DNA from: Candidatus Gottesmanbacteria bacterium RIFCSPLOWO2_01_FULL_42_22
GTDB lineage: Bacteria > Patescibacteriota > Microgenomatia > 2-02-FULL-39-11
Assembly: GCA_001779315.1 (NCBI GenBank)
Contig: MFJU01000001.1
Location: 6,258 to 70,257, forward strand
Length of the DNA: 64,000 nt
Reading direction: 5' to 3'
Part shown: in pieces, positions 20,150 through 63,904 of the stretch
Layout of the letters: every line of letters begins with the position of its first letter
How positions within the stretch are numbered: the first letter of the stretch is position 1
Notes under the pieces: generated by a model
What the model was told of the DNA's origin: nothing
Seen by the model: the letters and a program-made list of their open reading frames with translations, nothing else
The model's database searches: none
Translations under genes and position numbers: made by a program

Positions 20150-22664
20150 CGGGTAATGGTAATGCTTCTTTTCTCTCCCAATCCCCTGTTTCTTCAGCCA
20201 GTAGCCGCATCCCGGAGCAGCTACGGATATCATCTAATCCTAAGATAAACTGCATGACTCTTTCATTACCAATTCCGTAACCCGCATGAGGGTCTGTCTT
20301 TTCCTTATAAATAATATCCAAATACCATCTAAAATCGTCGATGGCTGTTTCAGGAGGTAATTTCGTTCTTTCACAATAAATTCTAAACATTTCTGAACTT
20401 AATAACCGGTCTTCAAGCTGTTTACCTCGATGTTCTCTGACAGACGCTCCGGTTGCCTCACCGGCAATAGGAAGTATCAAATCAGCTGAGAGCACAACGC
20501 GCGGATCAATTTCAGAAACTTTCATATTAAAAAATTTTATCTCTTTGGGATATCTCATGATAAAAACCGGTAAATTACTTTTAACAACTTTTTCTCCTGA
20601 TTCTTCCTGTTTTTTGTTGTTTAATAGTTTAATTACAGCTTGTTCATGTTCCGCTTTTAAGTCGTCACCCCACTTAAGATTTGAGAAACCATTTTCTCGA
20701 AGAAGTATTAATGCATCTTCGTACGTAATTCTGTAATAGGGATTTTCGATAGTCTCTCGAAGTTGTTTTAAATCTCTCCCGTACAACATTGAAAGGGTAT
20801 CACCATGTTGTTCAACTGCGACACGAATCATAGTTTTTGTCGATGCTTCAATATGCTGCAAAAGTGCCTCAAACATTTTTCCTTCATCATAATTATCTCT
20901 AGTCATTCCATCGACCATAGTTGACCCGAATTCTTCTTCTGTCAGTCGAAATTGACGCAAATGTCGGTTGTCTTCCGTCTCTTCATCTCTGCCGCTATGA
21001 ATAATCGTATAAACCCCGTGCCGATGCACTTGAAGTGCTTGTTCCAATGCTAATTGTCCGGTTTGTGTGATGAATAATTGTACGCCGGCCCTGCTCATAA
21101 CCTTAAAAAGTGTATCAACATTTTCACAGGAGCCAGTAACTCCTACAATTTCCGGAACCGTAATATATTGAAGGCCAATTTGTCCATAATGTCCTGAGAC
21201 TGCCTTTTGTATACTTGCCTCCAGTTGGGAAAGCGCTTTTATATGTTCCTTTGTCTGTATTTCTTTATTACCTTCGTTTGTCTTTATTGTAAATATCCCT
21301 CTTTCTTTTACCAGTCGTTGTACGGCTTTTTCTGAAATCTCGTCTTCAGAGACTGCTTCAAAAGAAGGAATGCTTTCTAATGTTTTTTCAATATATTCTT
21401 GGGCTTTTGTAGAATCATACATTACATCCTGATAAAAAACCCCCAGATGATATAGCGTCCATATTTTCAATCGTTGCAGTCTCCGATCGTCCGGATTTCT
21501 AACCAAAGAATCATTTAGGTCCGTTAGGGCTTTTTGCAGAAATTCTTCAGTTTCGTTTGCTATGGTTTTGTCATAAAGTTGAGCTAAACCTATTCTTAAT
21601 GAGCATTCTGCTTCTTTGGTTTGCAGACTCTGAATAAATGACTCGTGTTCTTCACCCTGAAGATAAACATCCGCTAGAGTACGGGCCAAACCATAAGCTT
21701 TATGAGCTGTTAAAAAATAGTTAATCGGATCACCATCACCTATCCTTCCTCTTAAAAGGGCAAATATACCAAAATTGGCTGCATGATAACAATCTCTAGG
21801 AGACCGTTCTCTGCCGTTAGCAATTTCTGTTAAATACGATCCGAAACGCGACATACCCTCATCAAGAATATTGAAAGGGACATCCTCAGAAGTTACTTCA
21901 TTTAATAAACCATTTGCATCGATGATAAGACCCCAGTCTGTTAATTGTGCAATAACTTGGCCATTATGCATTATTGTTCCTATATCCTGAAGGTGTAATG
22001 AATCTTCTCCGAATAAATTTCGATTCTCATGCACTTCATGTGGAGGATTAGTGGGATACGCTCCCGAGTTGATTTGTTGACTGATAATATCTAATACCTG
22101 AGCAGGTTTTGTTCGGTCATAACGGGATGGAATATCCGGCATCCACATAACCTGGGGAATCAAAAAATCATTTTTGTATGTTTGGATGGCTACATCAATG
22201 ACTTCTTTTAAACCGTGTTCTGAAGAATATTCAGGAAGACTGTTATTTTCCGGAGGGTTGAGAAAATAATCTGCCAATTCTCTGAGATAAAATCTGTTTA
22301 TTGAAGGTGTATTAGGATAATTCTTAGATTCTACTGTAATTTTACGTCTCTCAATCCTGAGTAACGCATCCAAAACAACCCGCGATTTAGTTTCCCATGT
22401 TCCTCTAAAATCTAAATCAGCTTCTAATCTTATGACATCTTCCAAAGTAACTGATAAATTTTTTAGGGGTAAATATGTGTCAAATAACAACCCAGCCTGC
22501 TGCATTCTTAAATATCTGCCGGCAAAATTAGGCGGTAACAATTCGGGGCGAATTGAGGGAGGTCCGGTTATTCCTGTCTGTTGATCATAGTTTGTTAGTT
22601 GTTCTTCGATAAAAGCTGTTTTACGAGCCTCTATTTGATCAGCTGCAACCTCATAACTTGACAT
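20139..22664 (-). CDS. Large fusion protein: unknown ~460-aa N-terminal domain plus a C-terminal AsnRS/AsnA-like class II aminoacyl-tRNA-synthetase catalytic core with no anticodon-binding domain
   Basis: 841 aa. C-terminal half aligns with the AsnRS core: ..FITQTGQLALEQ.. (motif 1 region), ..RHLRQFRLTEEEF.. (motif 2; cf. RHLAEFWMLEPE), ITYEDA..WGDDLKAEHE, PVFIMRYPKEIKFFNM, GEATGASVRE, PHAGYGIGNERVMQFILG (motif 3). Codon usage and G+C are visibly more AT-rich than the flanking genes. Confidence 0.7.
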   Translation of the reverse strand: MSSYEVAADQIEARKTAFIEEQLTNYDQQTGITGPPSIRPELLPPNFAGRYLRMQQAGLLFDTYLPLKNLSVTLEDVIRLEADLDFRGTWETKSRVVLDALLRIERRKITVESKNYPNTPSINRFYLRELADYFLNPPENNSLPEYSSEHGLKEVIDVAIQTYKNDFLIPQVMWMPDIPSRYDRTKPAQVLDIISQQINSGAYPTNPPHEVHENRNLFGEDSLHLQDIGTIMHNGQVIAQLTDWGLIIDANGLLNEVTSEDVPFNILDEGMSRFGSYLTEIANGRERSPRDCYHAANFGIFALLRGRIGDGDPINYFLTAHKAYGLARTLADVYLQGEEHESFIQSLQTKEAECSLRIGLAQLYDKTIANETEEFLQKALTDLNDSLVRNPDDRRLQRLKIWTLYHLGVFYQDVMYDSTKAQEYIEKTLESIPSFEAVSEDEISEKAVQRLVKERGIFTIKTNEGNKEIQTKEHIKALSQLEASIQKAVSGHYGQIGLQYITVPEIVGVTGSCENVDTLFKVMSRAGVQLFITQTGQLALEQALQVHRHGVYTIIHSGRDEETEDNRHLRQFRLTEEEFGSTMVDGMTRDNYDEGKMFEALLQHIEASTKTMIRVAVEQHGDTLSMLYGRDLKQLRETIENPYYRITYEDALILLRENGFSNLKWGDDLKAEHEQAVIKLLNNKKQEESGEKVVKSNLPVFIMRYPKEIKFFNMKVSEIDPRVVLSADLILPIAGEATGASVREHRGKQLEDRLLSSEMFRIYCERTKLPPETAIDDFRWYLDIIYKEKTDPHAGYGIGNERVMQFILGLDDIRSCSGMRLLAEETGDWERKEALPLPVIV

Positions 22665-38712: not shown

Positions 38713-39477
38713 TTACATTTTTATTACCGGAAATTCAGACTGCCAGGCTATTACCTTGTTTCTGCCTCCTGATGTAGCTAATGCTGACGGCCATTCCCCT
38801 TTAGCTACATAGAGTGCCGAATCTGCCCTACTTAGGATAGATCTTAGATCATCCTCCTTTCTAACAACAGTATATCCGATACTGGCAGTGATAGGTTCTG
38901 GAATCTTAACTCCCTCAATTTTGGATGCCAACTCAGATTCTATTGTTTGACGAAGTCTTTCCAACGCAACCATTCCCCCATCTTCTCCTGTATTGGAAAG
39001 AACTGCAGCAAATTCCTCTCCGCCTAATCTAGCGACGGCATCTGTTACCCGTAATGTTTCCCCTATAATTTGTGAAAATTTTTTTAAGACTTCATCCCCT
39101 ATTGCGTGACCGTAATTTGTATTAAATTGCTTAAAATGATCAAGATCAATCATCGCTATCACAAGAGGTTCGCTTGTTCTTTCGGCATGAGATTTCATCA
39201 TTTCCACAATTTTTTCGAAGCCACGTCTGTTCCAAACTGCCGTTAATTCATCGGTAGTACCCTTCATGATTAACAATGATAAATGATCCGCCAATGCCTG
39301 AGCTACTACCTCAATAGGCAACTGATCATTTTTTACAGATTGCAATAGTGAAATCATATTTTGCGCTATTTCACTGCTCTCAATTTGTCGATGTCTTTCC
39401 AGATTTAAAGGTATATTAATTGTTGCTTCTTTTGTACGTCTTTGAAGATATTGAAAATATTCCGTTCCATTATCCAT
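38713..39477 (-). CDS. GGDEF-domain diguanylate cyclase with a short N-terminal sensor region of unknown type
   Basis: 254 aa; ..LTAVWNRRGFE.., ..IDLDHFKQFNTNYGH.., active-site RLGGEEF; AT-richer codon usage than its neighbours. Confidence 0.8.
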   Translation of the reverse strand: MDNGTEYFQYLQRRTKEATINIPLNLERHRQIESSEIAQNMISLLQSVKNDQLPIEVVAQALADHLSLLIMKGTTDELTAVWNRRGFEKIVEMMKSHAERTSEPLVIAMIDLDHFKQFNTNYGHAIGDEVLKKFSQIIGETLRVTDAVARLGGEEFAAVLSNTGEDGGMVALERLRQTIESELASKIEGVKIPEPITASIGYTVVRKEDDLRSILSRADSALYVAKGEWPSALATSGGRNKVIAWQSEFPVIKM

Positions 39478-53680: not shown

Positions 53681-53684
53681 AACA

Positions 53685-53871
53685 TTCCTTCGGGGTAGGG
53701 TGAATCTCCTTCGCTGAAGCTTCGGCGATCGAGGTAATTCCCAATCGGTAGATATTCTCTACGAGTCCCGATTATATCGGGACATGAGCCGGCGAAACTC
53801 CGGCAGCGACCGTAAAGTCGGGATAAAAGAGGGATTTGAGTTTGTGTTACCCCGATGGCCGGGGTTTTTTT
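53685..53871 (+). promoter_or_regulatory. FMN riboswitch (RFN element) with a terminator-type expression platform
   Basis: CUUCGGGGUAGGGUGAA...AUUCCCAAUCGGUAG...GCGACCGUAAAGUCGGGAUAAAAGAGGGA matches the RFN core (cf. CUUCGGGGCAGGGUGAAAUUCCCGACCGGCGGUAG...CCGACAGUGAAAGUCUGGAUGGGAGAAGGA). Followed by CCCCGAUGGCCGGGG + UUUUUUU at 53850-53871, abutting the ATG at 53872. Confidence 0.8.
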
Positions 53872-54771
53872 ATGAAAAAAATATTGGTTAAAGGACCGCT
53901 TTTCATTATTATAGCTGCCTTGCTTTGGAGTTTTGACGCTTTACTGCGAAGAAGCCTTTATACTCTGCCGTCATCGGTGATTGTCTTTTATGAGCATCTA
54001 TTGGGCGCGATTATCCTCCTGCCCTTATTAGCAAGATATATAAAAGAAGCGAAAAAGATGAACCGCCGGGAATGGCTCTCTATACTTGTGGTCTCCCTGT
54101 TTTCCGGAGCCTTAGGCACTATTTTCTATACCAAAGCTTTGGGCATGGTCCAGTATATCCAGTTCTCGGTGGTTGTTCTTTTACAGCAGCTTCAGCCTAT
54201 CTGGGCAATTGCGGCAGCCGCCATTATCCTTAAAGAAAAAATTTCGGGCAAATTCATCAAATGGGCGATCTTAGGCATAATCGCCGCTTATTTGATCAGT
54301 TTCCGCGATCTTAAGATAAATTTTGTTTCCGGTTCCGGTCAGATTACCGCGGCTGTCTTAGCTCTCATGGCCGGTTTTGTCTGGGCGGTTTCCACCTCCT
54401 TTTCCAAAGTCGTTTTAAAAAAAGTTTCCTTTTTGACTGCTACTTTTTTAAGATTCATCCTGGCGCCTGTTTTCGCTTTCCTTTTTATTTTAGGAGAGAA
54501 GCAATTGCCGGCTCTTACAAAAATAAATCCCCAGCAGTGGCTGATGCTTTTGGCAATTACATTCTCAACCGGCATGGTGGCTCTGGTTATTTATTATTAC
54601 GGCCTGAAAAAAACACCTGCCAGGGTTAGTACTATCGCGGAATTGGTATGGCCTGCTTCAGCCATTTTTATCGATTATTTCCTCTATAAATCCATCCTCT
54701 CTCCGACACAGATTCTGGGGGTGATACTTTTATTTATCGCTATTTACCATGTCAGTAAATTTTCCAAGTAA
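53872..54771 (+). CDS. EamA/DMT-family 10-TM transporter, probable riboflavin importer (ImpX/RibN-like)
   Basis: Two EamA repeats of ~5 TM helices each; directly controlled by the FMN riboswitch and followed by riboflavin kinase. The ORF is open from the TTG at 53836, but that would read through the terminator hairpin; the ATG at 53872 (MKKILVKG...) is preferred. Confidence 0.75.
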   Translation: MKKILVKGPLFIIIAALLWSFDALLRRSLYTLPSSVIVFYEHLLGAIILLPLLARYIKEAKKMNRREWLSILVVSLFSGALGTIFYTKALGMVQYIQFSVVVLLQQLQPIWAIAAAAIILKEKISGKFIKWAILGIIAAYLISFRDLKINFVSGSGQITAAVLALMAGFVWAVSTSFSKVVLKKVSFLTATFLRFILAPVFAFLFILGEKQLPALTKINPQQWLMLLAITFSTGMVALVIYYYGLKKTPARVSTIAELVWPASAIFIDYFLYKSILSPTQILGVILLFIAIYHVSKFSK

Positions 54772-55271: not shown

Positions 55272-55985
55272 TTGTTTATGCAGTATACATCACACCGCTT
55301 GCGTTCACAGGAGAAAAAGCTCAATAAAAAGCTCGTTAGAACTGTCATTCTGATATTAGTCGGCACCATTGCCGCATTCCAGATCGGTTTGCCGGTATTG
55401 GCCAAAATTGTCGTTGGGTTGTCATTTCTGAGAAAAGATAAGGGCATTACAGAACAGTCTGCCGTCAGCCTGTTGTTTCCTCCGGCTTTAAATTCCCTAC
55501 CGGAAGCCACCAATTCAGCCATGATCATTGTCTCGGGAGTCACGGACAAAAACAGTTCTATAGTCATTTCTGTTAACGGCGAAGAAGAAAAGAGCGCATC
55601 GGATAATGAAGGACAATTTGAATTCAGGGGAGTCAGACTTCAGGAGGGTGAAAATACCATCGAAGCCTATCTGGAAAAAGAGGGAAAAAGAAGCTCCTCT
55701 GCCGGTTTGAATATTATTTATAAAAAAAAGCCGCCGGAAATTACCATCAATGAACCGGAAAACGGCCGTAAATTTTTCGGGGAGGATAAAACTGTAATTA
55801 TCAGAGGAACAACGGAAAATAATGCCCGTCTGAGTGTCAATGACCGCTTTATTATTGTCGAACCGGACGGCGATTTTGAATACAACACGTCATTAAATGA
55901 GGGCGAGAATAAATTTATTTTCAAATCTTCTGATATAGCCGGTAACAGCCATGAAGTTGAATTTAAGCTTGAGTACTCTCCTTAA
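55272..55985 (+). CDS. Membrane-anchored hypothetical protein with a beta-rich (Ig-like?) extracytoplasmic domain
   Basis: 237 aa; N-terminal TM (VILILVGTIAAFQIGLPVLAKIVVG); no catalytic motif seen. Confidence 0.5.
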   Translation: MFMQYTSHRLRSQEKKLNKKLVRTVILILVGTIAAFQIGLPVLAKIVVGLSFLRKDKGITEQSAVSLLFPPALNSLPEATNSAMIIVSGVTDKNSSIVISVNGEEEKSASDNEGQFEFRGVRLQEGENTIEAYLEKEGKRSSSAGLNIIYKKKPPEITINEPENGRKFFGEDKTVIIRGTTENNARLSVNDRFIIVEPDGDFEYNTSLNEGENKFIFKSSDIAGNSHEVEFKLEYSP

Positions 55986-57135
55986 ATTTTTGCTGTAACC
56001 CTGATAAAAGATAAAACCAGACCAGGAAATAAGTAAAGAACAGTGAATTTAAAAACAGGCTGTGCACCGCCGTAGCAATCATCAAGCTTTTGCCCGTTGC
56101 ATCCAACCGTAAAAACAAGGCTGTTAAAAATCCCAGATAAGCAATCAGGCCTAAGATACCGCTTGAGGCTGCCACAAACAAAAAACTGTTGTCAAAACCG
56201 GCAGCCGAATGGCTGGTCAGCCAGTCTTCACGAAGGTATTGGCTGTTGCGGAAATTGAATCTGAGAGTATTAAAACCTACTCCCAGAAACGGTTTACTTT
56301 TAATAATGGTCACGGCCGATTGCCAGTTCGACAGCCTTTCCCTGATGGAAAAAAGACGTTCCAGTTCGACACCGGCCCCTCCGGGCCTGGGCAGTAAAAA
56401 TAGGCCTGACAATAATACGATTCCGACCAAAAAATATTTAAAAAACCTGCCAGATCTGAAAGCCCAATATAAGGCTCCGGATACCAACGAGACATAAGAA
56501 CTTCTGGAATAGGTAAAAGCCAGACTAAAAAGGAGGGCTATTTTATAAATTATTTCCTGTATCTTCGAGGGATTTGACAGCCGGAACAGAAAAAGGACAA
56601 CCAGAATCAGTCCGAAGTAATTGGGATCAAGTAAAGTTGAAAATATCCGGCGGTAATGCGGATCCCAGCCCAGATAATAAAGATTTCTTAAATCCGGATA
56701 AAGGAAATACTGCAGCCAGCCGGCAATTACCAGAAAAATTCCGAAAAGGGAAACTGATTTAACTGCGAATTTTCTTTCTAAGTATTCTTTATCCAAAACA
56801 ATTAAAATTAACGGGTAAATCTGGAAATAAGCTACAAATCTCGCCAAGTACAAAAGCGAAATTATTTTATCCGTTTGGGAAAGACGGATGGGACTGAACC
56901 ACCAGCTGGCAAGAGCGACCAGGATAAAAAGGCCAAAGGCTTTAAATTCCGGCCTTTCCCGGTAAAGACTGATAAGATTTTTCCATGAAAATAACAGAAG
57001 CAGATTAAGCAGTAAAACGACGATATCCGGAGGATAAAGTTTTAGCGGTTGGGGAAAAAAATCGATTTGGAATAAAGGACCGGCTGAAACAGAGGCTAAC
57101 AGAAGCACAAGGATAATCTTATGGATTTTTTTCAT
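55963..57135 (-). CDS. O-antigen ligase / Wzy-like polytopic membrane protein
   Basis: 390 aa; ~10 TM helices with a large periplasmic loop containing ..TYSRSSYVSL.. (Wzy_C-like). Confidence 0.65.
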   Translation of the reverse strand: MKKIHKIILVLLLASVSAGPLFQIDFFPQPLKLYPPDIVVLLLNLLLLFSWKNLISLYRERPEFKAFGLFILVALASWWFSPIRLSQTDKIISLLYLARFVAYFQIYPLILIVLDKEYLERKFAVKSVSLFGIFLVIAGWLQYFLYPDLRNLYYLGWDPHYRRIFSTLLDPNYFGLILVVLFLFRLSNPSKIQEIIYKIALLFSLAFTYSRSSYVSLVSGALYWAFRSGRFFKYFLVGIVLLSGLFLLPRPGGAGVELERLFSIRERLSNWQSAVTIIKSKPFLGVGFNTLRFNFRNSQYLREDWLTSHSAAGFDNSFLFVAASSGILGLIAYLGFLTALFLRLDATGKSLMIATAVHSLFLNSLFFTYFLVWFYLLSGLQQKFKESTQA

Positions 57136-57901
57136 CTTTAAGGTAAGCAGTATAGAGCTTGCCCCGGGCTAAAAAAGAATGAAAACTCATCATCACGGCC
57201 ATAATCAATCCGGCCACTCCGTCAAGAAAGCCGAATTTCAGCAGATAGTTTTTAAAGAATTTACCTGCCGGATAGAGCAGGATCTGCCAAAAACCGATTC
57301 TTCTCCCCTGCTCTTTCCAAGATTGTGCGACTAGTGTCGAATATTCGTTTATTTTGACTAAAAATTCTTTGATATCTTTATGTGAGGAGTGAATAAAGGG
57401 ATTTTTCAGATACCCCGTTTTTCCGCTGATTTGCCATACTTCATGAACTTTATTGATCCATCGTCCCCTGTCATACCTGCCTAGTCTTAAAAAGAAGATA
57501 TGGCCCGTTTCACCGAACTTCAGCAGTTTCCTATAGATGATATCCTGCCTCTTTATAAAATATCCGTTCACATTTCCCGGGTTTTTAAGGATTTTGGTTA
57601 TTTCCTCCTGTAAATTACGGCTGACTTCCTCATCCGCATCGATTGACAAAACCCACTCATGACTTACCTTGCTTAAAGCAAAATTCCTTTGAGCGGCAAA
57701 ATCACCGTTTAAACTGTGCTGATGAATCTTTAGAGTTCCCGGATAATCTTTTTGAAACTGCTTAATTATGCGAATGACCGCTTCAGTGGAATTATCCAAA
57801 ACCAGAACAATTTCCGGACAAAAACTGACGGATTTTAGGCAGGCTAGAATTTTTGTCTCTTCATTTTGGGCCAGAATGACGCTAGATAGGTTTTTGATCA
57901 C
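57119..57901 (-). CDS. Family 2 glycosyltransferase
   Basis: 260 aa; GT-A fold, ..VLDNSTE.., ..SIDADEE.. (DxD). Confidence 0.8.
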   Translation of the reverse strand: MIKNLSSVILAQNEETKILACLKSVSFCPEIVLVLDNSTEAVIRIIKQFQKDYPGTLKIHQHSLNGDFAAQRNFALSKVSHEWVLSIDADEEVSRNLQEEITKILKNPGNVNGYFIKRQDIIYRKLLKFGETGHIFFLRLGRYDRGRWINKVHEVWQISGKTGYLKNPFIHSSHKDIKEFLVKINEYSTLVAQSWKEQGRRIGFWQILLYPAGKFFKNYLLKFGFLDGVAGLIMAVMMSFHSFLARGKLYTAYLKDEKNP

Positions 57902-58689
57902 TTTATCCTTATTTTATCCCAAATTATCTTGCCTGCCAAAAGGCATAAATAAACCCAGGCGGAAAGCTTCCTTACCCCGAAATGTTTATTGACCAGCTGC
58001 AAATTTGCTTTAAGGTTATAATAGATGGCGCGGTTTGACCAGCGGCCGATAGCCGAACTTAATTTATGATTGATAACCGTTTGGGGTTGGACTCCAATTT
58101 TGAAACCGCTTTTTTTAGCTCTCAGGCAAAAATCAACATCCTCGAAATAGAAAAAGAAGCGCTCGTCAAATAAGCCGATTGACTGAAAAACCTTTCTTCT
58201 GATTAGCATGCAGCAACCGCTGACATAATCCGCTTCTTTTGTATACTTTTTAAAATGCTTTTTTTCTTCCAAATGGCTAGTTCTGCCGGTCCAAGGGTTT
58301 AACCTTCCGCCGTAATCAAATATTGTTTCTCCATCACTATTGAGGAATTTGACGACTGCTCCGCTGATGTCATTTTCGGATTTGCTGATCTCTCCGAAAA
58401 AGTTTTTGGGGACAGTAGTATCATTATTTAGAATCAAAAAGTATGAAATAGCTTTATCTTTGACTGCTTCTTTTAAACCCCGGTTGACTCCGGCGGCGAA
58501 ACCCAGATTTTTTTCATTTCTGACAAGTCTGATATTTTTATAATGCTGAAAGTTTTCCTTTGTACCGTTATCGGCTAAAAAAATAGTGAGTTTAATTTCT
58601 TTTTTATTCGCTTTATAAAGGGAATCCAGGCAGTCTATGGTATCCTGGTACTTGCCGAAATGGAGAATGACGACAGCTATATTTTTCAT
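57898..58689 (-). CDS. Family 2 glycosyltransferase
   Basis: 263 aa; ..FLADNGT.., ..ILNNDTTV.., ..FEDVDF.. Confidence 0.8.
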   Translation of the reverse strand: MKNIAVVILHFGKYQDTIDCLDSLYKANKKEIKLTIFLADNGTKENFQHYKNIRLVRNEKNLGFAAGVNRGLKEAVKDKAISYFLILNNDTTVPKNFFGEISKSENDISGAVVKFLNSDGETIFDYGGRLNPWTGRTSHLEEKKHFKKYTKEADYVSGCCMLIRRKVFQSIGLFDERFFFYFEDVDFCLRAKKSGFKIGVQPQTVINHKLSSAIGRWSNRAIYYNLKANLQLVNKHFGVRKLSAWVYLCLLAGKIIWDKIRIK

Positions 58690-59846
58690 GTCTGTTTTAG
58701 AGTTTCTTTCAGTAATTTTTCCAGCCTGTCAGCGGATTTTGGCCAAGGCCAATTCTCTTTCACATAGTTTCTGCGGTAATCCCGGTCATTATCTTTGGTT
58801 TTTAAAACATCTTCTATTTTTTCAGCGAAAATACTCTCTTCCCTGGCTGAAATTTTACCCAGCCTTTTGTCAGTTAATATTTCCGGGATACCTCCTCCTC
58901 CGGTGGATAAAACCGCAAGCCCGCATGATAAAGCTTCCAAAATAACCAGACCGAACGGTTCATTTAACGGCGCGTAAAGGAAGAGCCTGGCTTGATTATA
59001 AAGCCTTATCAGATTTTCATCGCTTATATTCATCTCCAGCTTAAGCTCTACCCTTTTTTCTTTCGCTAAATTTTTTAAATAAACTGTCTCATTGCCTTCC
59101 GGACCGGCAATAACCAATGACGGCCTCTCATTTTTAGGTATTATGGCTATGCTATTGATAATGAAATCATGTCCTTTCAGAAGTGTCAAAGCTCCGACGG
59201 ATAGTACAAAATTTTCCTTTTTAATATTTAATGGTTTAAATAAATCGCTATCAACACCCGGATAATTTAACCAAACTTCCCTGCCGTAAATATTTTCCAA
59301 ATATTTCTGGCAATATTTTGAAAGAGTGACTATTTGGCCGGCATTTCGGGCATTCTCCCAATCTGTTTTCTTCAAAGGAAATCTGAAGGGAAGCGTCAGG
59401 TTATAGGTCAATTTATTGTTTTCTCTGGGAATATTTTCATAAAATTCCCGCTTTGGTTCCGGACAGGAATACAAAGAAGGGATTTTCAAATATCTCAAAA
59501 CATAAGGAGCTTGGGTCAGGTAGCAGGGATGGACAAAAGCTACATCATATTTGCCGCTGTTTATTCTTTCTGCCATTTGACTATAGGCTTTTTTAAGATC
59601 CGTATAGACAGATATGACAGAATAGGGGAATTTTTCCGGCTGATGATATGGAAATCTGTAAACATGCTGCACAAATTTTGTTAACGGTAAAAAACTTTCA
59701 TTGGTCCCGTTTAATATAAAGAGGTCCAATTGATGTTTTGCCGATAATCTTTTTACCAGCTCAAAAAGAGCCCGTTTCTGTCCTCCGGCAGGCAGATTAT
59801 GGACAACTGCAATTCTCATCTTAGCCTTCACACTTCCACTTCTCAT
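58686..59846 (-). CDS. Family 4 (GT-B, RfaB-like) glycosyltransferase
   Basis: 386 aa; C-terminal ..EPFGLVILEALSCGLAVLSTGGGGIPEIL.. GT4 motif. Confidence 0.8.
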   Translation of the reverse strand: MRSGSVKAKMRIAVVHNLPAGGQKRALFELVKRLSAKHQLDLFILNGTNESFLPLTKFVQHVYRFPYHQPEKFPYSVISVYTDLKKAYSQMAERINSGKYDVAFVHPCYLTQAPYVLRYLKIPSLYSCPEPKREFYENIPRENNKLTYNLTLPFRFPLKKTDWENARNAGQIVTLSKYCQKYLENIYGREVWLNYPGVDSDLFKPLNIKKENFVLSVGALTLLKGHDFIINSIAIIPKNERPSLVIAGPEGNETVYLKNLAKEKRVELKLEMNISDENLIRLYNQARLFLYAPLNEPFGLVILEALSCGLAVLSTGGGGIPEILTDKRLGKISAREESIFAEKIEDVLKTKDNDRDYRRNYVKENWPWPKSADRLEKLLKETLKQT

Positions 59847-60652
59847 TACACCTCGGGAGTGTCATATCTAAATAATCGGGTAAAAAATGCATACATTTGA
59901 ATATTGCCCTGATACAGGCCGAAGATGACGGCTGCCCGGAAACCGTTATATCCGTCCAGAAACCCACGTTTACGATAATAACAGCGAAAAAAATGCCTGG
60001 CAGTTTCCAGAAAGATCCCGCTAAAAAATGACGCTGCCGCTGTTTTTGATTTCGCCAAATCGCTTCCTTCGATTTTAATGTAATTTATTAAACGGAAAAA
60101 AGACAACCAGGAGTTGTACTTGCTTCGTTCAGGACTATGAAGTATCTCCACATCTTTTATATATCGGGTTTTCTTTTCGGGTATCTGGATTTGGGCATGG
60201 ATAATCCCGGAATATTTATAACCTTTGTGGTTACGGAATAGTCTCAACTGCCAATCAGGGTAAAAGTAGCCATGTTTCAAATAGGTCTTATCATTTATAT
60301 AATTCCTCCTCGGAAACCAATACCCGTCGATATCCTTTTTCTTAACCAACTCCCGTATCACTTCTTGAGCCCCCTCCGTCAACTCCTCATCCGCATCTAA
60401 TGTTAGTATCCATTCATTATTACTTTTTGAAATTGCATAATTTTTTTGAACAGAGAAATTAATAAATTTTTGGGAATATATTTGTTTTGTATATTGTGAT
60501 AATTCATTAACTGTATTGTCTCTACTATATGAATCAACAATGATTAAATTATCACCGTATTTTTTCCTAACTAATTTATTTATATTTTTTTCTTCATCTT
60601 GAACTATTACTACTAAATCTATTTTAAAATCTCTGTTAATAGCTATTGACAT
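59846..60652 (-). CDS. Family 2 glycosyltransferase (LPS-core/KdtX-like), markedly AT-rich
   Basis: 268 aa; ..LTLDADEELTEG.. DxD region; AT-rich codon usage unlike the upstream GT genes. Confidence 0.7.
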   Translation of the reverse strand: MSIAINRDFKIDLVVIVQDEEKNINKLVRKKYGDNLIIVDSYSRDNTVNELSQYTKQIYSQKFINFSVQKNYAISKSNNEWILTLDADEELTEGAQEVIRELVKKKDIDGYWFPRRNYINDKTYLKHGYFYPDWQLRLFRNHKGYKYSGIIHAQIQIPEKKTRYIKDVEILHSPERSKYNSWLSFFRLINYIKIEGSDLAKSKTAAASFFSGIFLETARHFFRCYYRKRGFLDGYNGFRAAVIFGLYQGNIQMYAFFTRLFRYDTPEV

Positions 60653-60684
60653 AACTGTAAATTATATTTAACTTATAAATATAA

Positions 60685-63045
60685 ATGGTTTTAATTATTT
60701 TATTAATACTAATTTTTTCTCTTTTTATTCCTACTAAAGTCTGGTCAGTTTTTGTTCCTGAAAATTCTCCTATTTTATCAAAAGGATCTACTTGGGACAA
60801 AACGAATGTTTATGGTCCCTCAGTAATATTTGATGATAATAATATCTATAAATTATGGTATACAGGGTATGATGGTTATAAAGCTCAAATTGGGTATTCT
60901 AGCTCTGATACTTACCTAAATTTTTCACCTAATCCGGTTTCTCCAATTATCCCAGGTACAATTATATATCAGTATGATGGAGGTGTAGAACATCCAAGTG
61001 TCCTTAAAATATCAAATAGCTTATATAAAATGTGGTTTCATCGTGCTAAATCAAGTTTTAATAGCTTCGAACTATATTACGCAGAATCTACAAATGGCAC
61101 AATTTGGACAAATTACACTAAGCTTTTATTTACTAATCAAACAACATGGGATCAATATAGTCAAACAGCACCATCAGTTATATACGATGAGAATGATGAA
61201 AATATGAAATATAAAATGTGGTATACAGGTTCAGGATATTTTAATAATGAGCCTAGAATGTGGAGAATAGGTTTTGCATATTCTAATGATGGAATTAATT
61301 GGACTAAAAACGTAGAACCAGTATTAATAGCTGATCAATATTGGGAAGACAAGAGAGAATTAACAGGAGTAGCAAATCCTCATGTACTAAAAATTTCTGA
61401 CAAATATCACATTTGGTACCATAGCAATGAAAAAATAGGTTATGCTGCTTCAAGCGATAGTGGAATGACTTGGAATAAATATATCGATCCAATACTTTCT
61501 GCTAAATCTGGAACATATTATAGCTCGTCTGTATGGGATCCATATGTTGTATATTATGATAATAAATTTTATCTATTTTTTTCCGCATTTAGTTCAAGCT
61601 CTAAACATATTGGTGTAGCTACCGATACTTCATTACCTGAAGTTGAAAAACCGACGGAGACGCCGACGGCGACTCCGACGGTGACGCCGACGGCCACTCC
61701 GACTCCTACCATTCCTAAAAATTCTCCGATTATCATTATTCCCGGATTGGGAGCATCCTGGAATTCCAAAGACATTATATCCTGTGATACAGGACAGTCC
61801 GGAAAATGGAGTAAAACTCCGTTTGTTACCGTCTATGACCGCCTGATTAAAACTTTGCAGAAAAATGCCAAGTTAAATCAAAATAAAGATTTTTATGTCT
61901 ATTATTATGACTGGCGCCTGCCAATAAACGATCAGACCAAAAAACTTAAGACATTTATTAATAAAGTAACTTCAAAATCGAAAGCGAGACTGATCGGCCA
62001 CAGTCTCGGAGGTTTATTAATCAGAGGCTATCTGACGGATTACCCTCAGGATGATAAGGTTTATAAAGCAATGACTATCGGTACCCCTCATTTAGGTACA
62101 ATTCTAAGTTACCCATTGTGGGAAAACGGAGAAATCTGGTTTGATGATCTGGCTACCAAAATTCCCATAACGCAGCTTATAAATTATTGCCGGGTAGTGA
62201 AAACTGTCATGAATCTGGGTACTGTTACTAACGGTCTGGTCAATATTGACGTTAATACTTATAAACTGATGAGTCCGCGCGAAACAATTGTGGCTCTCTC
62301 CCCTTCCATAGAATCCCTTTTGCCTGGTTTTGATTATTTAAAATTAGACGGCCAGACAGTTCCCTTTTCATCATTAAAATCACAAAATATTTGGCTTCAA
62401 AACCATCCCCCGGATGATCTCCGCACAAAATTAATTACTGACACCATCTCCGGATCCGGCTTTGATACCCTCAGATATCTTGAAATCGAACCGGCTCCGG
62501 CAAAGGATATACAAGCCGGCAACTGGCTTGACGGAAAACCGGTCAACCGGGAAAAAGATGAATCAGGTGACGGAACAGTCCTGTCTATGAGCAGCCAGTT
62601 GAATAGTGCAGATAATCAGGTGTTAAACGCTGATCATGTCCAAATAGTCTATTATGATGAAGCACTAAAGAAAATTCTTGAGTTTCTCAATCTCAAGGAA
62701 ATTTCCCCTTTTGGAATACAGGCTGTACCGGAAGCTGATGCTGATACTGCCATAACTTTGATGTCCGATAAAGATGCGGTTATTGAAGCAGTTAAACCTG
62801 ATAATCAGAAAGTTATCGGTCAGGATAATCTATTGGCTTTATTTAATCCTTTGAAAGGGAATTACAAATTGAAAATAAAAGGAAGCCAAAACGGACAGGC
62901 AGTCTTGCAGACAAGCTGGTTTAGTAAAACCGGAGGAATTGAAACCGATACCTATGCTTTAAAACTTAAGAAGAATAAGTGGAATAACTATCTTCTTCTC
63001 TATATGCCTGAAAGCCAAAATAAACTGCTTATGGTTCCGAATTAA
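60685..63045 (+). CDS. Secreted or membrane-anchored two-domain protein: N-terminal BNR/Asp-box beta-propeller (glycosidase/sialidase-like), Pro/Thr linker, C-terminal alpha/beta-hydrolase lipase-like domain
   Basis: 786 aa; N-terminal hydrophobic signal/anchor; Asp-box repeats (SSDSGMTW, SNDGINWT, STNGTIWT) and repeated ..MWYTG../..IWYHS.. blades; (PT)n linker PTETPTATPTVTPTATPTPT; C-terminal ..IIIPGLGAS.. and nucleophile elbow ..LIGHSLGGL.. Confidence 0.7.
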   Translation: MVLIILLILIFSLFIPTKVWSVFVPENSPILSKGSTWDKTNVYGPSVIFDDNNIYKLWYTGYDGYKAQIGYSSSDTYLNFSPNPVSPIIPGTIIYQYDGGVEHPSVLKISNSLYKMWFHRAKSSFNSFELYYAESTNGTIWTNYTKLLFTNQTTWDQYSQTAPSVIYDENDENMKYKMWYTGSGYFNNEPRMWRIGFAYSNDGINWTKNVEPVLIADQYWEDKRELTGVANPHVLKISDKYHIWYHSNEKIGYAASSDSGMTWNKYIDPILSAKSGTYYSSSVWDPYVVYYDNKFYLFFSAFSSSSKHIGVATDTSLPEVEKPTETPTATPTVTPTATPTPTIPKNSPIIIIPGLGASWNSKDIISCDTGQSGKWSKTPFVTVYDRLIKTLQKNAKLNQNKDFYVYYYDWRLPINDQTKKLKTFINKVTSKSKARLIGHSLGGLLIRGYLTDYPQDDKVYKAMTIGTPHLGTILSYPLWENGEIWFDDLATKIPITQLINYCRVVKTVMNLGTVTNGLVNIDVNTYKLMSPRETIVALSPSIESLLPGFDYLKLDGQTVPFSSLKSQNIWLQNHPPDDLRTKLITDTISGSGFDTLRYLEIEPAPAKDIQAGNWLDGKPVNREKDESGDGTVLSMSSQLNSADNQVLNADHVQIVYYDEALKKILEFLNLKEISPFGIQAVPEADADTAITLMSDKDAVIEAVKPDNQKVIGQDNLLALFNPLKGNYKLKIKGSQNGQAVLQTSWFSKTGGIETDTYALKLKKNKWNNYLLLYMPESQNKLLMVPN

Positions 63046-63077
63046 GAAGGATAACCGCTTTATTATTTCCTTGATAG

Positions 63078-63151
63078 TGGCCGCTGAGGGATTTGAACCC
63101 CCGACCCCTGCAATGTGAATGCAATGCTCTAGCCAACTGAGCTAAGCGGCC
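63078..63151 (-). tRNA. tRNA-Val (anticodon CAC)
   Basis: Reverse complement GGCCGCTTAGCTCAGTTGGCTAGAGCATTGCATTCACATTGCAGGGGTCGGGGGTTCAAATCCCTCAGCGGCCA; anticodon stem TTGCA/TGCAG with loop TTCACAT. Confidence 0.8.
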
Positions 63152-63223
63152 TTTTCCACTGAATATTATAGCTAAATAGTGCTTGCAGTGCTACCTTGGG
63201 TTTACCTATAATTAGAAAATATC

Positions 63224-63904
63224 ATGAATAAGCCGCATGTGGTAATAAATACTGATGACAGAAAGCCCCAATCTGACGTGACGGTAAATGATTATGTCGA
63301 AAAAGAGGTTGAAGACGACTCTAAGCAAGAGTTTTTCCTCGTCAAGATTTTCAGATCAGGAATAAATTTTGTCTTTGATTTCCTGGAAACCATTGTCGTA
63401 GCTTTATCTGTTTTTGTGGTCATTTATCTTTTTATTGTCCAGCCTCATGAAGTCAAAGGTTCCTCCATGGAGCCGACTTTCCAAAATAACGAATATATCA
63501 TCACTGATAAAATCAGCTACCGCTTCGGCAAACCCAACCGCGGGGATGTCGTTATTTTTAAAGCTCCGGTCAACCCGGACGTCGATTACATCAAAAGAAT
63601 TATCGGCCTACCCGGTGAAACGGTCATGGTCCAGAGCGGCCGGATCTATATTGACGGCAAAATGCTTAACGAACCTTATTTGGAAGATTTAACACCCATT
63701 TTTCCCGGCGGTTTTATCAAGGAGGGTGTAGTAGTTTCCATACCCGAGAACCATTATTTCGTCATGGGAGACAACAGGCCCCACAGCTCCGATTCACGTG
63801 AATTCGGCCCGATTGAAAAGAAACTGATTATCGGTAGGGCGGTTTTCCGCTATTGGCCAATCAATAACCTGGGATTGATTCCGGGCGCAAATTACAGATA
63901 CTAA
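63224..63904 (+). CDS. lepB: Signal peptidase I
   Basis: 226 aa; N-terminal TM; catalytic ..GSSMEPTF.. Ser box; ..YIKRIIGLPGE.. Lys box; ..GDNRPHSSDSREFG.. Confidence 0.85.
   Translation: MNKPHVVINTDDRKPQSDVTVNDYVEKEVEDDSKQEFFLVKIFRSGINFVFDFLETIVVALSVFVVIYLFIVQPHEVKGSSMEPTFQNNEYIITDKISYRFGKPNRGDVVIFKAPVNPDVDYIKRIIGLPGETVMVQSGRIYIDGKMLNEPYLEDLTPIFPGGFIKEGVVVSIPENHYFVMGDNRPHSSDSREFGPIEKKLIIGRAVFRYWPINNLGLIPGANYRY

What the first reader, a model, noticed from the sequence alone, without database searches (positions are those of the whole stretch)
60685..63045. Chimeric Asp-box propeller / lipase-like hydrolase fusion with a compositional seam at its Pro/Thr linker
The first ~310 codons (BNR/Asp-box beta-propeller with SxDxGxTW repeats) are conspicuously AT-rich. 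From the (PT)n linker onward, the sequence jumps to the local genomic composition and encodes a GHSLGG alpha/beta-hydrolase of the LCAT/PGAP1-like lipase type. The upstream divergent GT2 gene (59846-60652) shares the AT-rich character. This looks like a recombination-built gene pairing a carbohydrate-binding or glycosidase-like propeller with an esterase/lipase. In an organism of this type it could act on host or neighbour surface glycolipids.
Basis: partly seen in the sequence, partly recalled or inferred. Interest (0 to 1): 0.55.

Follow-up and report, generated by a model that had tools for sequence, protein, structure and literature searches.

The report
AT-rich swap cassette in glycan locus
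The sharp AT-rich/GC-normal seam inside this secreted propeller-lipase gene is real, but it does not mark where two foreign genes were joined: it is one edge of a small AT-rich block that relatives exchange as a unit at a cell-surface sugar locus, inside a gene whose two-domain design is old and widespread.

Summary
The seam is confirmed. Third-codon-position GC is 0.16 from 60395 to 61650 and 0.42 outside that stretch (log-likelihood ratio 56; the best of 100 shuffles was 12.7). The right edge falls on the first codons of the Pro/Thr linker.

The N-terminal domain is a five-bladed GH130/DUF377-like propeller, not a BNR sialidase-type one, and it lacks the invariant GH130 aspartate. The C-terminal part is a lipase/LCAT-like hydrolase with an invariant Ser440-Asp629-His651 triad, followed by a beta-sandwich.

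The fusion is ancient. Dozens of 50%-identity clusters have this full-length architecture. In all eleven relatives fetched (mostly Gottesmanbacteria/Microgenomates), the gene sits divergently from a glycan operon. Wherever the contig reaches that far, tRNA-Val and signal peptidase I lie downstream.

The AT-rich island straddles the divergent promoter in every locus. In three pairs of relatives with conserved flanks, it coincides with a hyper-divergent block. That block holds the first operon gene(s) plus 160-290 codons of the propeller, and its relationships disagree with those of the flanks.

Best reading: an exchangeable variable cassette like those of O-antigen or capsule loci, with edges inside both genes. 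Function is inferred: a secreted, glycan-targeted esterase/lipase of the cell envelope.

The parts
55963..59846 (-). Distal genes of the divergent glycan-assembly operon: Wzy_C-type polymerase/ligase (55963-57135), GT2 (57119-57901), GT2 (57898-58689) and GT4 (58686-59846). GC3 is normal (0.37-0.44).
   Evidence: Pfam. GC3. Same gene order in L001, L082 and L084.
59846..60652 (-). First gene of the operon, a GT2 glycosyltransferase (268 aa) read divergently from the fusion gene. Codons 1 to ~80 lie inside the AT-rich island.
   Evidence: Pfam Glycos_transf_2, 4.6e-12. GC3 is 0.12/0.08 for codons 1-80 and 0.52 from codon 81, with the same step in L001.
60395..61650 (.). AT-rich island, inferred to be a variable cassette. 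It holds the 5' third of GT2, the 32-nt spacer and the whole signal peptide plus propeller coding region. GC3 is 0.159.
   Evidence: Change-point LLR 56, against <=12.7 in permutations. GC at conserved 4-fold sites is 0.09, against 0.44 in the hydrolase part.
60653..60684 (.). 32-nt spacer between the two divergent start codons (GC 0.09). Both promoters must therefore overlap coding sequence.
   Evidence: The consensus promoter scan was uninformative.
60685..63045 (+). Fusion gene, 786 aa: signal peptide, GH130-like propeller, PT linker, Ser-Asp-His hydrolase and a beta-sandwich.
   Evidence: AlphaFold model with mean pLDDT 88.9.
60685..60747 (+). Predicted Sec signal peptide (MVLIILLILIFSLFIPTKVWS | VF).
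   Evidence: A hydrophobic N-terminal helix at aa 2-13 followed by low confidence. A hydrophobic N-terminus ending in a small-x-small motif is conserved in 36 homologues. No signal-peptide predictor was available, so this is inferred.
60760..61638 (+). Five-bladed beta-propeller of GH130/DUF377 type (aa 26-318). It is allelic class A, with 'GVEHPS' where GH130 has 'EDPR'.
   Evidence: - Pfam PF04041 scores 47-52 bits, above the 26-bit cutoff.
- The PDB profile search finds 7fip at 8e-26 and 9fj8 at 1e-22.
- The top Foldseek hits are GH130, GH43 and GH117 structures.
- Motif classes are listed.
61639..61719 (+). Pro/Thr linker (aa 319-345), encoded by (CCG ACG)-type repeats, GC 0.60. The compositional seam lies at its 5' end.
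   Evidence: pLDDT is below 50 for aa 324-342.
61720..62664 (+). Alpha/beta-hydrolase domain (aa 346-660), lipase/LCAT-like.
- Ser440: nt 62002-62004
- Asp629: nt 62569-62571
- His651: nt 62635-62637
   Evidence: - S, D and H are invariant in 36 and in 54 homologues.
- Pfam: Palm_thioest, DUF915 and DUF676 score above their cutoffs. LCAT matches 35 of 36 family members.
- Foldseek neighbours are 6wpx, 4xx1 and family I lipases.
62665..63042 (+). C-terminal all-beta domain (aa 661-786) of unknown role. It is the least conserved part (11-32% identity to homologues).
   Evidence: Strands at aa 688-785 with pLDDT above 90. Identities.
63077..63151 (-). tRNA-Val(CAC), the conserved right-hand landmark of the locus.
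   Evidence: Present 3' of the fusion gene in all 8 relatives scanned, as GAC in L087.
63224..63904 (+). Signal peptidase I (S26), a conserved downstream neighbour.
   Evidence: Pfam, 3.7e-53. Synteny.

Best explanation
The gene encodes an old, conserved, Sec-exported envelope enzyme of Gottesmanbacteria/Microgenomates (CPR bacteria). It consists of a five-bladed GH130-like propeller, most likely a glycan-recognition module in this allele; a flexible Pro/Thr linker; a lipase/LCAT-like Ser-Asp-His hydrolase; and a beta-sandwich. It sits head-to-head with a Wzy-type surface-glycan operon.

The compositional seam is the right-hand edge of a ~1.26-kb AT-rich block (60395-61650). This block spans the first ~80 codons of the divergent GT2 gene, the shared promoter spacer and the whole propeller. 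Across relatives the block behaves as an exchangeable variable cassette. It is replaced by deeply divergent but homologous alleles through recombination in the conserved flanks, as in the low-GC central regions of O-antigen and capsule loci. In this genome and in its nearest relative, the right-hand crossover or composition edge lies at the linker.

What is shown: the island, its conservation at this locus, its coincidence with a hyper-divergent block whose relationships disagree with the flanks, the ancient fusion, the folds and the catalytic triad.

What is inferred: that the window's own edges are recombination breakpoints; the reason the cassette stays AT-rich; secretion; and the function. 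On function, the variable half of the propeller travels with the variable glycosyltransferase. I therefore think it most likely (about 0.4) that the propeller recognises the glycan made by the adjacent operon and brings the esterase/acyl-hydrolase to an acylated or lipid-linked form of it. Host-directed lipid scavenging is the main alternative (about 0.3).
For: Seam.

Ancient fusion and synteny:
- Homologue counts.
- In the loci that extend far enough, the order is Wzy/GT2/GT2/GT4/(methyltransferase)/GT2, then divergently the fusion gene, tRNA-Val, S26, ParB, L27, L21, FtsW and IleRS.

Island conserved at this position:
- In each of the 8 loci tabulated, the gene directly divergent from the fusion gene has the lowest or near-lowest GC3 of the locus (0.19-0.35).
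- Propeller GC3 is below hydrolase GC3 in 8 of 8 loci.

Island coincides with a hyper-divergent block between conserved flanks:

| Pair | Flank aa identity | Block aa identity |
|---|---|---|
| L084/L090 | GT4 0.78; fusion aa>=289 0.75-0.95 | GT2div 0.26; fusion aa 1-250 0.20-0.45 |
| L083/L088 | GT4 0.64; MT 0.74; fusion aa>=200 0.45-0.95 | GT2 0.29; MT 0.34; fusion aa 1-160 0.23-0.40 |
| L082/L091 | GT4 0.62; MT 0.60 | GT2div 0.25; fusion aa 1-165 0.25-0.28 |

In L084/L090, GC3 steps 0.30->0.65 and 0.22->0.48 at the same point where identity recovers.

Discordant relationships:
- By hydrolase, the nearest relatives of P0014 are P0029 and P0023 (0.91 and 0.84). Their N-terminal segments are only 0.23-0.24 identical to P0014's. 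Its N-terminal segment groups instead with proteins whose hydrolases are ~0.4 identical.
- Segment N1 correlates poorly with the rest of the protein (rho 0.24-0.29, against 0.60-0.85 among the other segments).
- N1 does correlate with the neighbouring GT2 (rho 0.46), but not with the hydrolase (-0.03) or GT4 (-0.24).

Not a recent import here:
- L001 is 61% identical in aa and has the same island with the same two edges.
- At conserved 4-fold sites, GC is 0.09/0.11 in the propeller against 0.44/0.35 in the hydrolase.
- Third-position identity in the propeller equals the composition expectation (41% vs 41%). Synonymous sites are therefore saturated while the protein stays 69% identical.

Folds and residues.
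Against: - No pair of sequences shows a crossover exactly at the window's two edges. Window and L001 carry the same cassette type, so for this genome the breakpoint reading rests on composition alone.
- Saturated synonymous sites with persistently low GC in two lineages mean that history alone cannot explain the AT-richness. Some ongoing local force, or repeated re-import from an AT-rich pool, is needed and has not been identified.
- The pairwise correlations use non-independent pairs and carry no P value.
- In window vs L001 the island is not more divergent than the flanks (propeller 0.69, hydrolase 0.55).
- The high N2/hydrolase identity ratios that might show a linker breakpoint elsewhere all involve P0031, whose hydrolase may simply be fast-evolving.
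- The function is untested, and the propeller's ligand is unknown.
Confidence: 0.65

Rival explanations
1. One reading: a recent chimera, in which an AT-rich foreign gene for a carbohydrate-binding propeller was joined by recombination at the PT linker to a resident lipase gene.
For: A sharp synonymous-site seam lies exactly at the linker. Over deep time the hydrolase module does occur with other N-terminal modules, for example a Kelch propeller in P0068.
Against: - The same two-domain protein is found in dozens of clusters at a conserved chromosomal position.
- The nearest relative of both halves is the same protein, P0002/L001. The propeller half is the more similar one (69% vs 55%).
- The propeller-only search finds nothing closer in any other context.
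- The island also covers the promoter and the 5' end of GT2.
- The seam is shared with a species whose synonymous sites are saturated relative to this one.
Confidence: 0.03
2. No exchange at all. The island is a locally maintained compositional state around a divergent promoter, such as transcription-associated AT-biased mutation, selection for an AT-rich regulatory or melting region, or loss of GC-biased gene conversion. The high divergence is then just faster local evolution.
For: - The island lies at the same place in every locus, whichever allele is present.
- AT-richness persists in two lineages despite saturated synonymous sites.
- The spacer is only 32 nt, so the promoters must lie in coding DNA.
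Against: - The edges are abrupt, with GC3 going 0.08->0.52 and 0.16->0.40 within one 40-50-codon bin. They sit up to 950 nt from the promoter on one side and ~260 nt on the other.
- No comparable island exists at the other divergent gene pairs of the window.
- The N-terminal segment shows true incongruence of nearest neighbours, not just low identity.
- In window vs L001 the island protein is more conserved than the flank.

This mechanism may still be why the cassette stays AT-rich, so it partly complements the best explanation.
Confidence: 0.2
3. Artefact: a chimeric metagenome assembly or bin joining two organisms of different GC, or an amino-acid-composition effect.
For: The sequence looks like an uncultured CPR genome. 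The relatives retrieved are mostly metagenome assemblies or MAGs.
Against: - Both junctions lie inside intact reading frames whose products align end to end with homologues.
- An independent NCBI genome (GCA_000999095.1, L001) has the same island with the same edges.
- GC1 and GC2 hardly differ, whereas GC3 and 4-fold-site GC do.
Confidence: 0.01
4. Functional rival: the protein is an offensive or foraging enzyme. The propeller docks onto glycans of a host or neighbouring cell, and the LCAT-like domain releases fatty acids or lysolipids from its membrane for a lipid-auxotrophic CPR cell. The cassette then varies to track host surface diversity.
For: - A signal peptide and no membrane anchor.
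- Lipase, LCAT and phospholipase-A-like structural neighbours.
- Giant proteins carry up to about 20 tandem copies of the same propeller, which suggests an adhesin-like binding role.
- From general knowledge, many CPR bacteria lack fatty-acid synthesis.
Against: The strict head-to-head linkage with the cell's own glycan operon, and co-inheritance of the variable propeller half with the variable glycosyltransferase, point more simply to the cell's own glycan as ligand. There is no direct evidence either way.
Confidence: 0.3

Closest known systems
[quoted passage not shown]
   Same: - A five-bladed propeller with full-length profile alignment to 9fj8 (aa 29-311 vs 6-289, E 1e-22).
- These are the top Foldseek hits.
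- The Pfam score is above the gathering cutoff.
- Like the GH130 hydrolases, it carries a signal peptide.
   Different: - The invariant catalytic Asp (BT3780 D142; D142N is inactive, PMC4599007) is replaced by His103 in the full-length register, or by Asn228 in the alternative blade register.
- No acidic residue is invariant across the 36-member family.
- NCBIfam equivalog scores are far below their cutoffs (75 vs 450).
- It is fused to a lipase-like domain, and elsewhere it is repeated in tandem in giant proteins.
- Some alleles (class B, 'HDP[KR]V') keep the Asp.
LCAT/LPLA2, PGAP1-like and bacterial family I lipases, including the BlEst2 lipase (PDB 6wpx, 4xx1, 1ex9, 4lip)
   Same: An alpha/beta-hydrolase fold, a GHSLGG nucleophile elbow, an invariant Ser-Asp-His triad and a helical cap insertion. 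Pfam LCAT matches 35 of 36 family members and PGAP1 matches 36 of 36.
   Different: - Identity to any solved structure is only 10-17%.
- In the window protein PGAP1 is below its cutoff (21.7 vs 24.3), and LCAT is not detected at E<=0.01.
- It has an extra C-terminal beta-sandwich and an N-terminal propeller.
- The substrate is unknown.
Low-GC variable central regions of O-antigen and capsule (Wzy-dependent) loci, with mosaic genes at their borders (general knowledge from Enterobacteria and Streptococcus)
   Same: A Wzy plus glycosyltransferase operon. Flanks are conserved while a central block is deeply divergent between otherwise close genomes. The variable block is markedly AT-rich, and its relationships disagree with those of the flanks.
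   Different: - It occurs in CPR/Microgenomates genomes.
- The block is tiny (1.3-2.5 kb).
- It centres on a divergent promoter.
- One edge cuts through a secreted enzyme, so part (160-290 codons) or, in this genome, all of a propeller domain is swapped together with the glycosyltransferase.
- Both alternative alleles encode the same fold.

Membership tests
BNR/Asp-box (sialidase-type) beta-propeller | Match to the BNR repeat or sialidase-clan Pfam models | tested here: not met
   No BNR-family hit even at E<=10. The only hit is PF04041.
BNR/Asp-box (sialidase-type) beta-propeller | Repeated canonical S-x-D-x-G-x-T-W, about one per blade | tested here: not met
   One exact motif (SSDSGMTW, aa 256). 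Two further motifs are the 7-residue S-x-[DN]-G-x-x-W. The 11 homologues checked have none of the canonical form.
BNR/Asp-box (sialidase-type) beta-propeller | Six-bladed fold with sialidase-like structural neighbours | tested here: not met
   The model has five blades. Of the top 50 PDB neighbours, 48 are five-bladed GH130, GH43, GH117, GH32 or GH159 structures (the other two are the BlEst2 lipase), and none is sialidase-like.
Glycoside hydrolase family 130 | Sequence match to the family model above the curated threshold | tested here: met
   PF04041 scores 47.2 bits against a 26-bit cutoff. 36 of 36 homologues match.
Glycoside hydrolase family 130 | Five-bladed propeller fold closest to GH130 structures | tested here: met
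   Foldseek E 3e-15 to 1e-14 to 3r67, 3qc2, 9gph and 5a7v. Profile E 8e-26 and 1e-22 to 7fip and 9fj8.
Glycoside hydrolase family 130 | Invariant catalytic aspartate of the [EY]-D-P-R motif (BT3780 Asp142) | tested here: not met
   It aligns to E102-H103 or to A227-N228. The column varies in the family among H, D, N, T, E, Q and S. Its role in GH130 is from PMC4599007.
Glycoside hydrolase family 130 | Phosphate-binding basic residues (phosphorylases) or the Glu pair (hydrolases) | not tested
   No structural superposition tool was available. No invariant D, E, R, K or H is found in the propeller part of alignment A1.
Glycoside hydrolase family 130 | Equivalog-level match to a characterised GH130 enzyme | tested here: not met
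   The best NCBIfam hit is NF052550 at 74.9 bits against a 450-bit cutoff.
Lipase/LCAT/PGAP1-like alpha/beta hydrolases | G-x-S-x-G nucleophile elbow and a conserved Ser-Asp-His triad | tested here: met
   GHSLGG at aa 438. S440, D629 and H651 are invariant in 36 and in 54 sequences.
Lipase/LCAT/PGAP1-like alpha/beta hydrolases | Match to specific Pfam models above their thresholds | tested here: inconclusive
   In the window protein Palm_thioest (31.9 vs 26.8), DUF915 (26.9 vs 22) and DUF676 (23.9 vs 20.3) pass. PGAP1 (21.7 vs 24.3) fails, and LCAT is not listed. In the family, LCAT matches 35 of 36 and PGAP1 36 of 36 at E<=1e-3.
Lipase/LCAT/PGAP1-like alpha/beta hydrolases | Structural neighbours are lipases or acyltransferases | tested here: met
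   6wpx (BlEst2) at 2e-13, 4xx1 (LCAT) at 3e-10 and Pseudomonas/Burkholderia/Proteus lipases at about 1e-9. The model has pLDDT 93.8.
Lipase/LCAT/PGAP1-like alpha/beta hydrolases | Ester or lipid hydrolysis, or acyl transfer activity | not testable with these tools
   Needs biochemistry.
Variable-cassette surface-glycan locus (O-antigen/capsule-like) | Wzy-type polymerase/ligase and several glycosyltransferases in one operon | tested here: met
   Wzy_C, GT2, GT2, GT4 and GT2.
Variable-cassette surface-glycan locus (O-antigen/capsule-like) | Conserved flanks with a deeply divergent, phylogenetically discordant centre between related genomes | tested here: met
   Three locus pairs, nearest-neighbour incongruence and block co-inheritance.
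Variable-cassette surface-glycan locus (O-antigen/capsule-like) | The variable part has atypically low GC | tested here: met
   Island GC3 is 0.12-0.30 against 0.31-0.61 in the flanks across the loci.
Variable-cassette surface-glycan locus (O-antigen/capsule-like) | Alternative cassettes segregating within one species or population | not testable with these tools
   Needs population metagenomes or read mapping. The closest pair available (L084/L090) is 78-84% identical in aa in the flanks.

The most novel reading that the evidence does not exclude
The cassette may be a matched 'writer-reader' unit. It would swap, in a single recombination event, a glycosyltransferase that sets a feature of the surface glycan and the specificity-determining half of the propeller that recognises that glycan. 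The attached lipase/esterase would then always match the cell's current glycan type. The two ancient propeller allele classes (with and without the GH130 catalytic Asp) would correspond to different chemistries. This would be a serotype-switching device in episymbiotic CPR bacteria that operates partly inside a single gene.
Probability: 0.2. Interest if true: 0.65.

Novelty: new variant of a known kind. Interest (0 to 1): 0.4.

Why it matters
- It turns an apparent 'chimeric gene' into a concrete, testable picture of how uncultured CPR bacteria vary their surface. A kilobase-scale AT-rich cassette is exchanged between lineages, and its edge runs through a conserved secreted enzyme.
- It defines a widespread but uncharacterised Microgenomates protein family: a GH130-like propeller joined to an LCAT-like hydrolase and a beta-sandwich, always next to the glycan operon and tRNA-Val. 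This family is a good candidate for envelope glycolipid or glycopolymer processing, or for host-lipid acquisition.
- It gives a caution for composition-based detection of horizontal transfer. A sharp intragenic GC3 step can be an old, maintained property of a locus rather than a recent import.

Tried and rejected
- The scan of genome contigs with the family alignment chose the generic GHSLGG pattern. It returned mostly unrelated alpha/beta hydrolases and was of little use.
- The scan of metagenome contigs with the single protein found no relative. The permitted second scan was not used.
- An exact look-up of the 99%-identical P0001 found no contig, so no near-identical independent assembly could be examined.
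- The sigma-70 promoter and terminator consensus scan gave no more sites than shuffles (11 vs 12.8), so the promoters were not located.
- An amino-acid-composition explanation of the seam was rejected (GC1/GC2 vs GC3; 4-fold sites).
- Translational selection was rejected. Ribosomal-protein genes in the syntenic locus L001 have ordinary GC3 of 0.44-0.45.
- A general property of divergent promoters was rejected, because no other such island exists in the 64 kb.
- A linker breakpoint elsewhere in the family is only suggested by P0031 and P0024 (N2/hydrolase identity ratio 1.7-2.2, against a median of 1.08). This may reflect a fast-evolving hydrolase, so it is not used as evidence.


Full report
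**1. What is at the coordinates**

The ORF 60685..63045 (+) is real and encodes 786 aa. It is read divergently from a GT2 gene (59846..60652, -). The two start codons are only 32 nt apart.

Upstream of the GT2 gene, on the minus strand, lie GT4, GT2, GT2 and a Wzy_C-type gene. Downstream lie tRNA-Val(CAC) (63077-63151, -) and signal peptidase I.

**2. The compositional seam is real and synonymous**

- The window averages 0.426 GC. The lowest-GC windows of 300, 900 and 1300 nt in the whole 64 kb all start at 60351-60401.
- The seam is carried by third codon positions, not by amino-acid content:

| Region | GC1 | GC2 | GC3 |
|---|---|---|---|
| Propeller, aa 26-318 | 0.365 | 0.396 | 0.181 |
| After the linker | 0.463 | 0.345 | 0.376 |

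- Among 52 ORFs, the eleven lowest 100-codon GC3 windows all fall here. The background is 0.444 +/- 0.074.
- A two-state change-point fit on third positions from 55963 to 63904 gives an island at 60395..61650. GC3 is 0.159 inside and 0.423 outside. The log-likelihood ratio is 56, against a maximum of 12.7 in 100 permutations.
- The right edge has a support interval of 61635-61656. This is the first codons of the Pro/Thr linker, since aa 319 starts at nt 61639. The left edge is 60386-60419, which is codon ~80-88 of GT2.
- The island is therefore not 'the propeller'. It is a 1.26-kb block containing the 5' third of GT2, the spacer and the propeller. The rest of GT2 has ordinary composition.

**3. 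What the protein is**

*N-terminal domain.*
- Pfam gives Glyco_hydro_130 for the N-terminal part (47-52 bits against a 26-bit cutoff) and no BNR model, even at E<=10.
- A profile of 36 homologues matches the beta-1,2-mannoside phosphorylases 7fip and 9fj8 at 8e-26 and 1e-22. The 9fj8 match runs the full length.
- The AlphaFold model (pLDDT 88.9) shows five blades. Its PDB neighbours are GH130, GH43, GH117, GH32 and GH159 propellers, apart from two chains of the BlEst2 lipase that match the C-terminal part.
The other two motifs are the 7-residue form typical of this propeller clan.
- The GH130 Asp that Cuskin et al. describe as invariant (Asp142 in BT3780; D142N is inactive; PMC4599007) is absent. 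In the full-length register it aligns to His103 ('GVEHPS'). In the alternative blade register it aligns to Asn228 ('GVANPH').
- No acidic or basic residue is invariant in the propeller across the family.
- The same propeller occurs in up to about 20 tandem copies in giant proteins.
- Together these points suggest a binding module rather than a canonical glycosidase in this allele. This is an inference.

*C-terminal part.*
- The model has pLDDT 93.8. It is an alpha/beta hydrolase with GHSLGG and invariant Ser440, Asp629 and His651.
- Its closest solved structures are the BlEst2 lipase, LCAT and family I bacterial lipases, at 10-17% identity.
- Family members hit Palm_thioest, PGAP1 and LCAT models.
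- A 125-residue beta-sandwich follows.

*N-terminus.* It is a hydrophobic signal-peptide-like segment conserved in the family. No predictor was available, so export is inferred.

**4. The fusion is old, common and fixed in place**

- The word-based search returned ~45 full-length two-domain homologues at 28-59% identity, from Gottesmanbacteria, other Microgenomates and CPR3.
- The exhaustive representative search found 578 clusters at E<=1e-30. By eye, roughly 55 of the best 150 align in a single stretch across both domains.
- I fetched eleven relatives (L001, L082-L091). In all of them the gene sits head-to-head with a glycan operon. In the loci that extend far enough, it is followed by tRNA-Val, S26, ParB, L27, L21, FtsW and IleRS.
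- Searching the halves separately does not give different best hits. The closest relative of both is P0002 (L001), at propeller 69% and hydrolase 55%. The propeller alone finds nothing closer elsewhere.

**5. What the seam is**

- The island is a property of the locus, not of this genome. In each of the 8 loci tabulated, the gene directly divergent from the fusion gene has the lowest or near-lowest GC3 (0.19-0.35). The propeller part always has lower GC3 than the hydrolase part. The low-GC3 tract reaches 150 to 320 codons into the gene, depending on the locus.
- L001 is 61% identical in protein. It has the same island with the same two edges: GT2 codon ~80 and the linker.
- At codons conserved between the two genomes, 4-fold-site GC is 0.09/0.11 in the propeller, 0.44/0.35 in the hydrolase and 0.46-0.61 in neighbouring genes.
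- Third-position identity in the propeller equals the composition expectation (41% vs 41%). Synonymous sites there are saturated while the protein stays 69% identical.
- The island is therefore not a recent import into this genome, and its AT-richness is being maintained or renewed.

**6. The island coincides with an exchanged block**

Three pairs of loci have conserved flanks but a hyper-divergent centre (aa identity):

| Pair | Conserved flanks | Divergent centre |
|---|---|---|
| L084/L090 | GT4 0.78; fusion from aa 289 0.75-0.95 | divergent GT2 0.26; first 250 aa of fusion 0.20-0.45 |
| L083/L088 | GT4 0.64; MT 0.74; fusion from aa ~200 0.45-0.95 | GT2 0.29; MT 0.34; fusion aa 1-160 0.23-0.40 |
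| L082/L091 | GT4 0.62; MT 0.60 | GT2 0.25; fusion aa 1-165 0.25-0.28 |

- In L084/L090, identity recovers exactly where GC3 steps up (0.30->0.65 and 0.22->0.48).
- This is incongruence, not only fast evolution. By hydrolase, the closest relatives of P0014 are P0029 and P0023 (0.91 and 0.84). Their N-terminal segments are only 0.23-0.24 identical to P0014's. Its N-terminal segment groups instead with proteins whose hydrolases are ~0.4 identical.
- Across 36 proteins, the first ~165 residues of the propeller correlate poorly with the rest (rho 0.24-0.29, against 0.60-0.85 among the other segments).
- Across 10 loci, that segment's identity tracks the neighbouring GT2 (rho 0.46). It does not track the hydrolase (-0.03) or GT4 (-0.24). 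These pairs are not independent, so no P value is given.
- There are two old allele classes of the N-terminal segment. Class A ('G[VI]EHP') includes the window. Class B ('N[VL]HDP[KR]V') keeps the GH130-like Asp.

**7. Interpretation**

The pattern matches what is known, from general knowledge of O-antigen and capsule loci, as a low-GC variable central region exchanged by recombination in conserved flanks. Three things are unusual here:
- the phylum;
- the very small size, centred on a divergent promoter;
- one edge that lies within a secreted enzyme gene, so that part or all of its propeller is swapped together with the glycosyltransferase.

In the window the tract runs to the linker, whose (CCG ACG)n repeats could favour a crossover. 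That the window's own edges are breakpoints is inferred from composition only.

Why both allele classes stay AT-rich is unexplained. Candidates are a local mutational or selective regime, loss of GC-biased conversion between diverged alleles, or circulation in an AT-rich gene pool.

**8. Function (inferred)**

- The protein is exported.
- The propeller binds a glycan.
- The Ser-Asp-His domain cleaves or transfers an acyl ester.
- The linkage with the operon, and co-inheritance of the variable propeller half with the variable glycosyltransferase, favour the cell's own glycoconjugate as target (about 0.4).
- Host-membrane lipid scavenging is a serious alternative (about 0.3).

**9. Verdict**

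- Observation: largely confirmed.
- 'Chimeric fusion': rejected.
- 'Recombination': retained in a different form.
- The domain architecture is a conserved, uncharacterised family, and the cassette is a new variant of a known kind of locus organisation.
- Interest: moderate.

Noticed in passing
window 63077-63151 (-); L001 7992-8836; L085 7370-8953; L086 7650-8639; L087 7375-7713; L088 8428-9592: tRNA-Val lies just 3' of the fusion gene in all 9 loci scanned. The gap between the gene and the tRNA is an insertion spot in relatives: NUDIX plus a GIY-YIG endonuclease-like gene in L001, a PMT_2 glycosyltransferase in L085, hypothetical genes in L086 and L087, and an IS200-type Y1 transposase in L088. 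In the window the gap is only 31 nt and empty.
   Followed up: partly
window 53682-53838 (+), before ORF 53836-54771: An FMN riboswitch (68.3 bits against a gathering score of 66.2) lies directly upstream of an EamA-family transporter gene. This is plausibly a riboflavin importer under FMN control.
   Followed up: no
proteins P0133 (5844 aa), P0212 (3302 aa), P0256 (2595 aa), P0149 (2300 aa), P0154 (1935 aa); These giant proteins carry 8-20 matched stretches of this same GH130-like propeller in tandem. Such use of a 'glycosidase' fold points to an adhesin or binding role.
   Followed up: no
alignment A1, column of window aa 99-107: There are two ancient allele classes of the propeller's second blade. 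'G[VI]EHPS' lacks the GH130 catalytic Asp and includes the window. 'N[VL]HDP[KR]V' retains Asp plus a basic residue, like GH130 'EDPR'. The swapped cassette may therefore toggle between a catalytic and a non-catalytic propeller.
   Followed up: partly
L001 5659-7995 (GCA_000999095.1, LCFP01000001.1): The public gene call for the nearest homologue (P0002, 664 aa, named 'PGAP1 family protein') is N-terminally truncated. The open frame starts 342 nt upstream and gives a 778-aa protein with a signal peptide and a complete propeller. A spurious 63-aa ORF is called on the opposite strand.
   Followed up: yes
window 20139-22664 (-) and 38713-39477 (-): These are the only other genes with clearly low GC3 (0.287 and 0.286). 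One is an 841-aa protein with a class II aminoacyl-tRNA-synthetase core at aa 473-815 and a ~470-aa unassigned N-terminal extension. The other is a GGDEF diguanylate cyclase.
   Followed up: no
window 61985-62008: A perfect 8-bp inverted repeat with an 8-nt loop (CGAGACTG ATCGGCCA CAGTCTCG) lies exactly over the codons for I-G-H-S-L-G (catalytic Ser440). The terminator scan flagged it on both strands. It is probably coincidental.
   Followed up: no
protein P0068 (829 aa) and P0053-P0074: The same hydrolase module occurs in other Microgenomates with different N-terminal parts: a Kelch beta-propeller in P0068, and 200-350 residues with no Pfam match in the others. Over deep time the targeting module is therefore interchangeable.
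   Followed up: partly
window 62200-62265 (aa 506-527): A window-specific ~22-residue insertion (KTVMNLGTVTNGLVNIDVNTYK) in the cap region of the hydrolase has pLDDT below 50. Most homologues have a shorter, different segment there or none.
   Followed up: no
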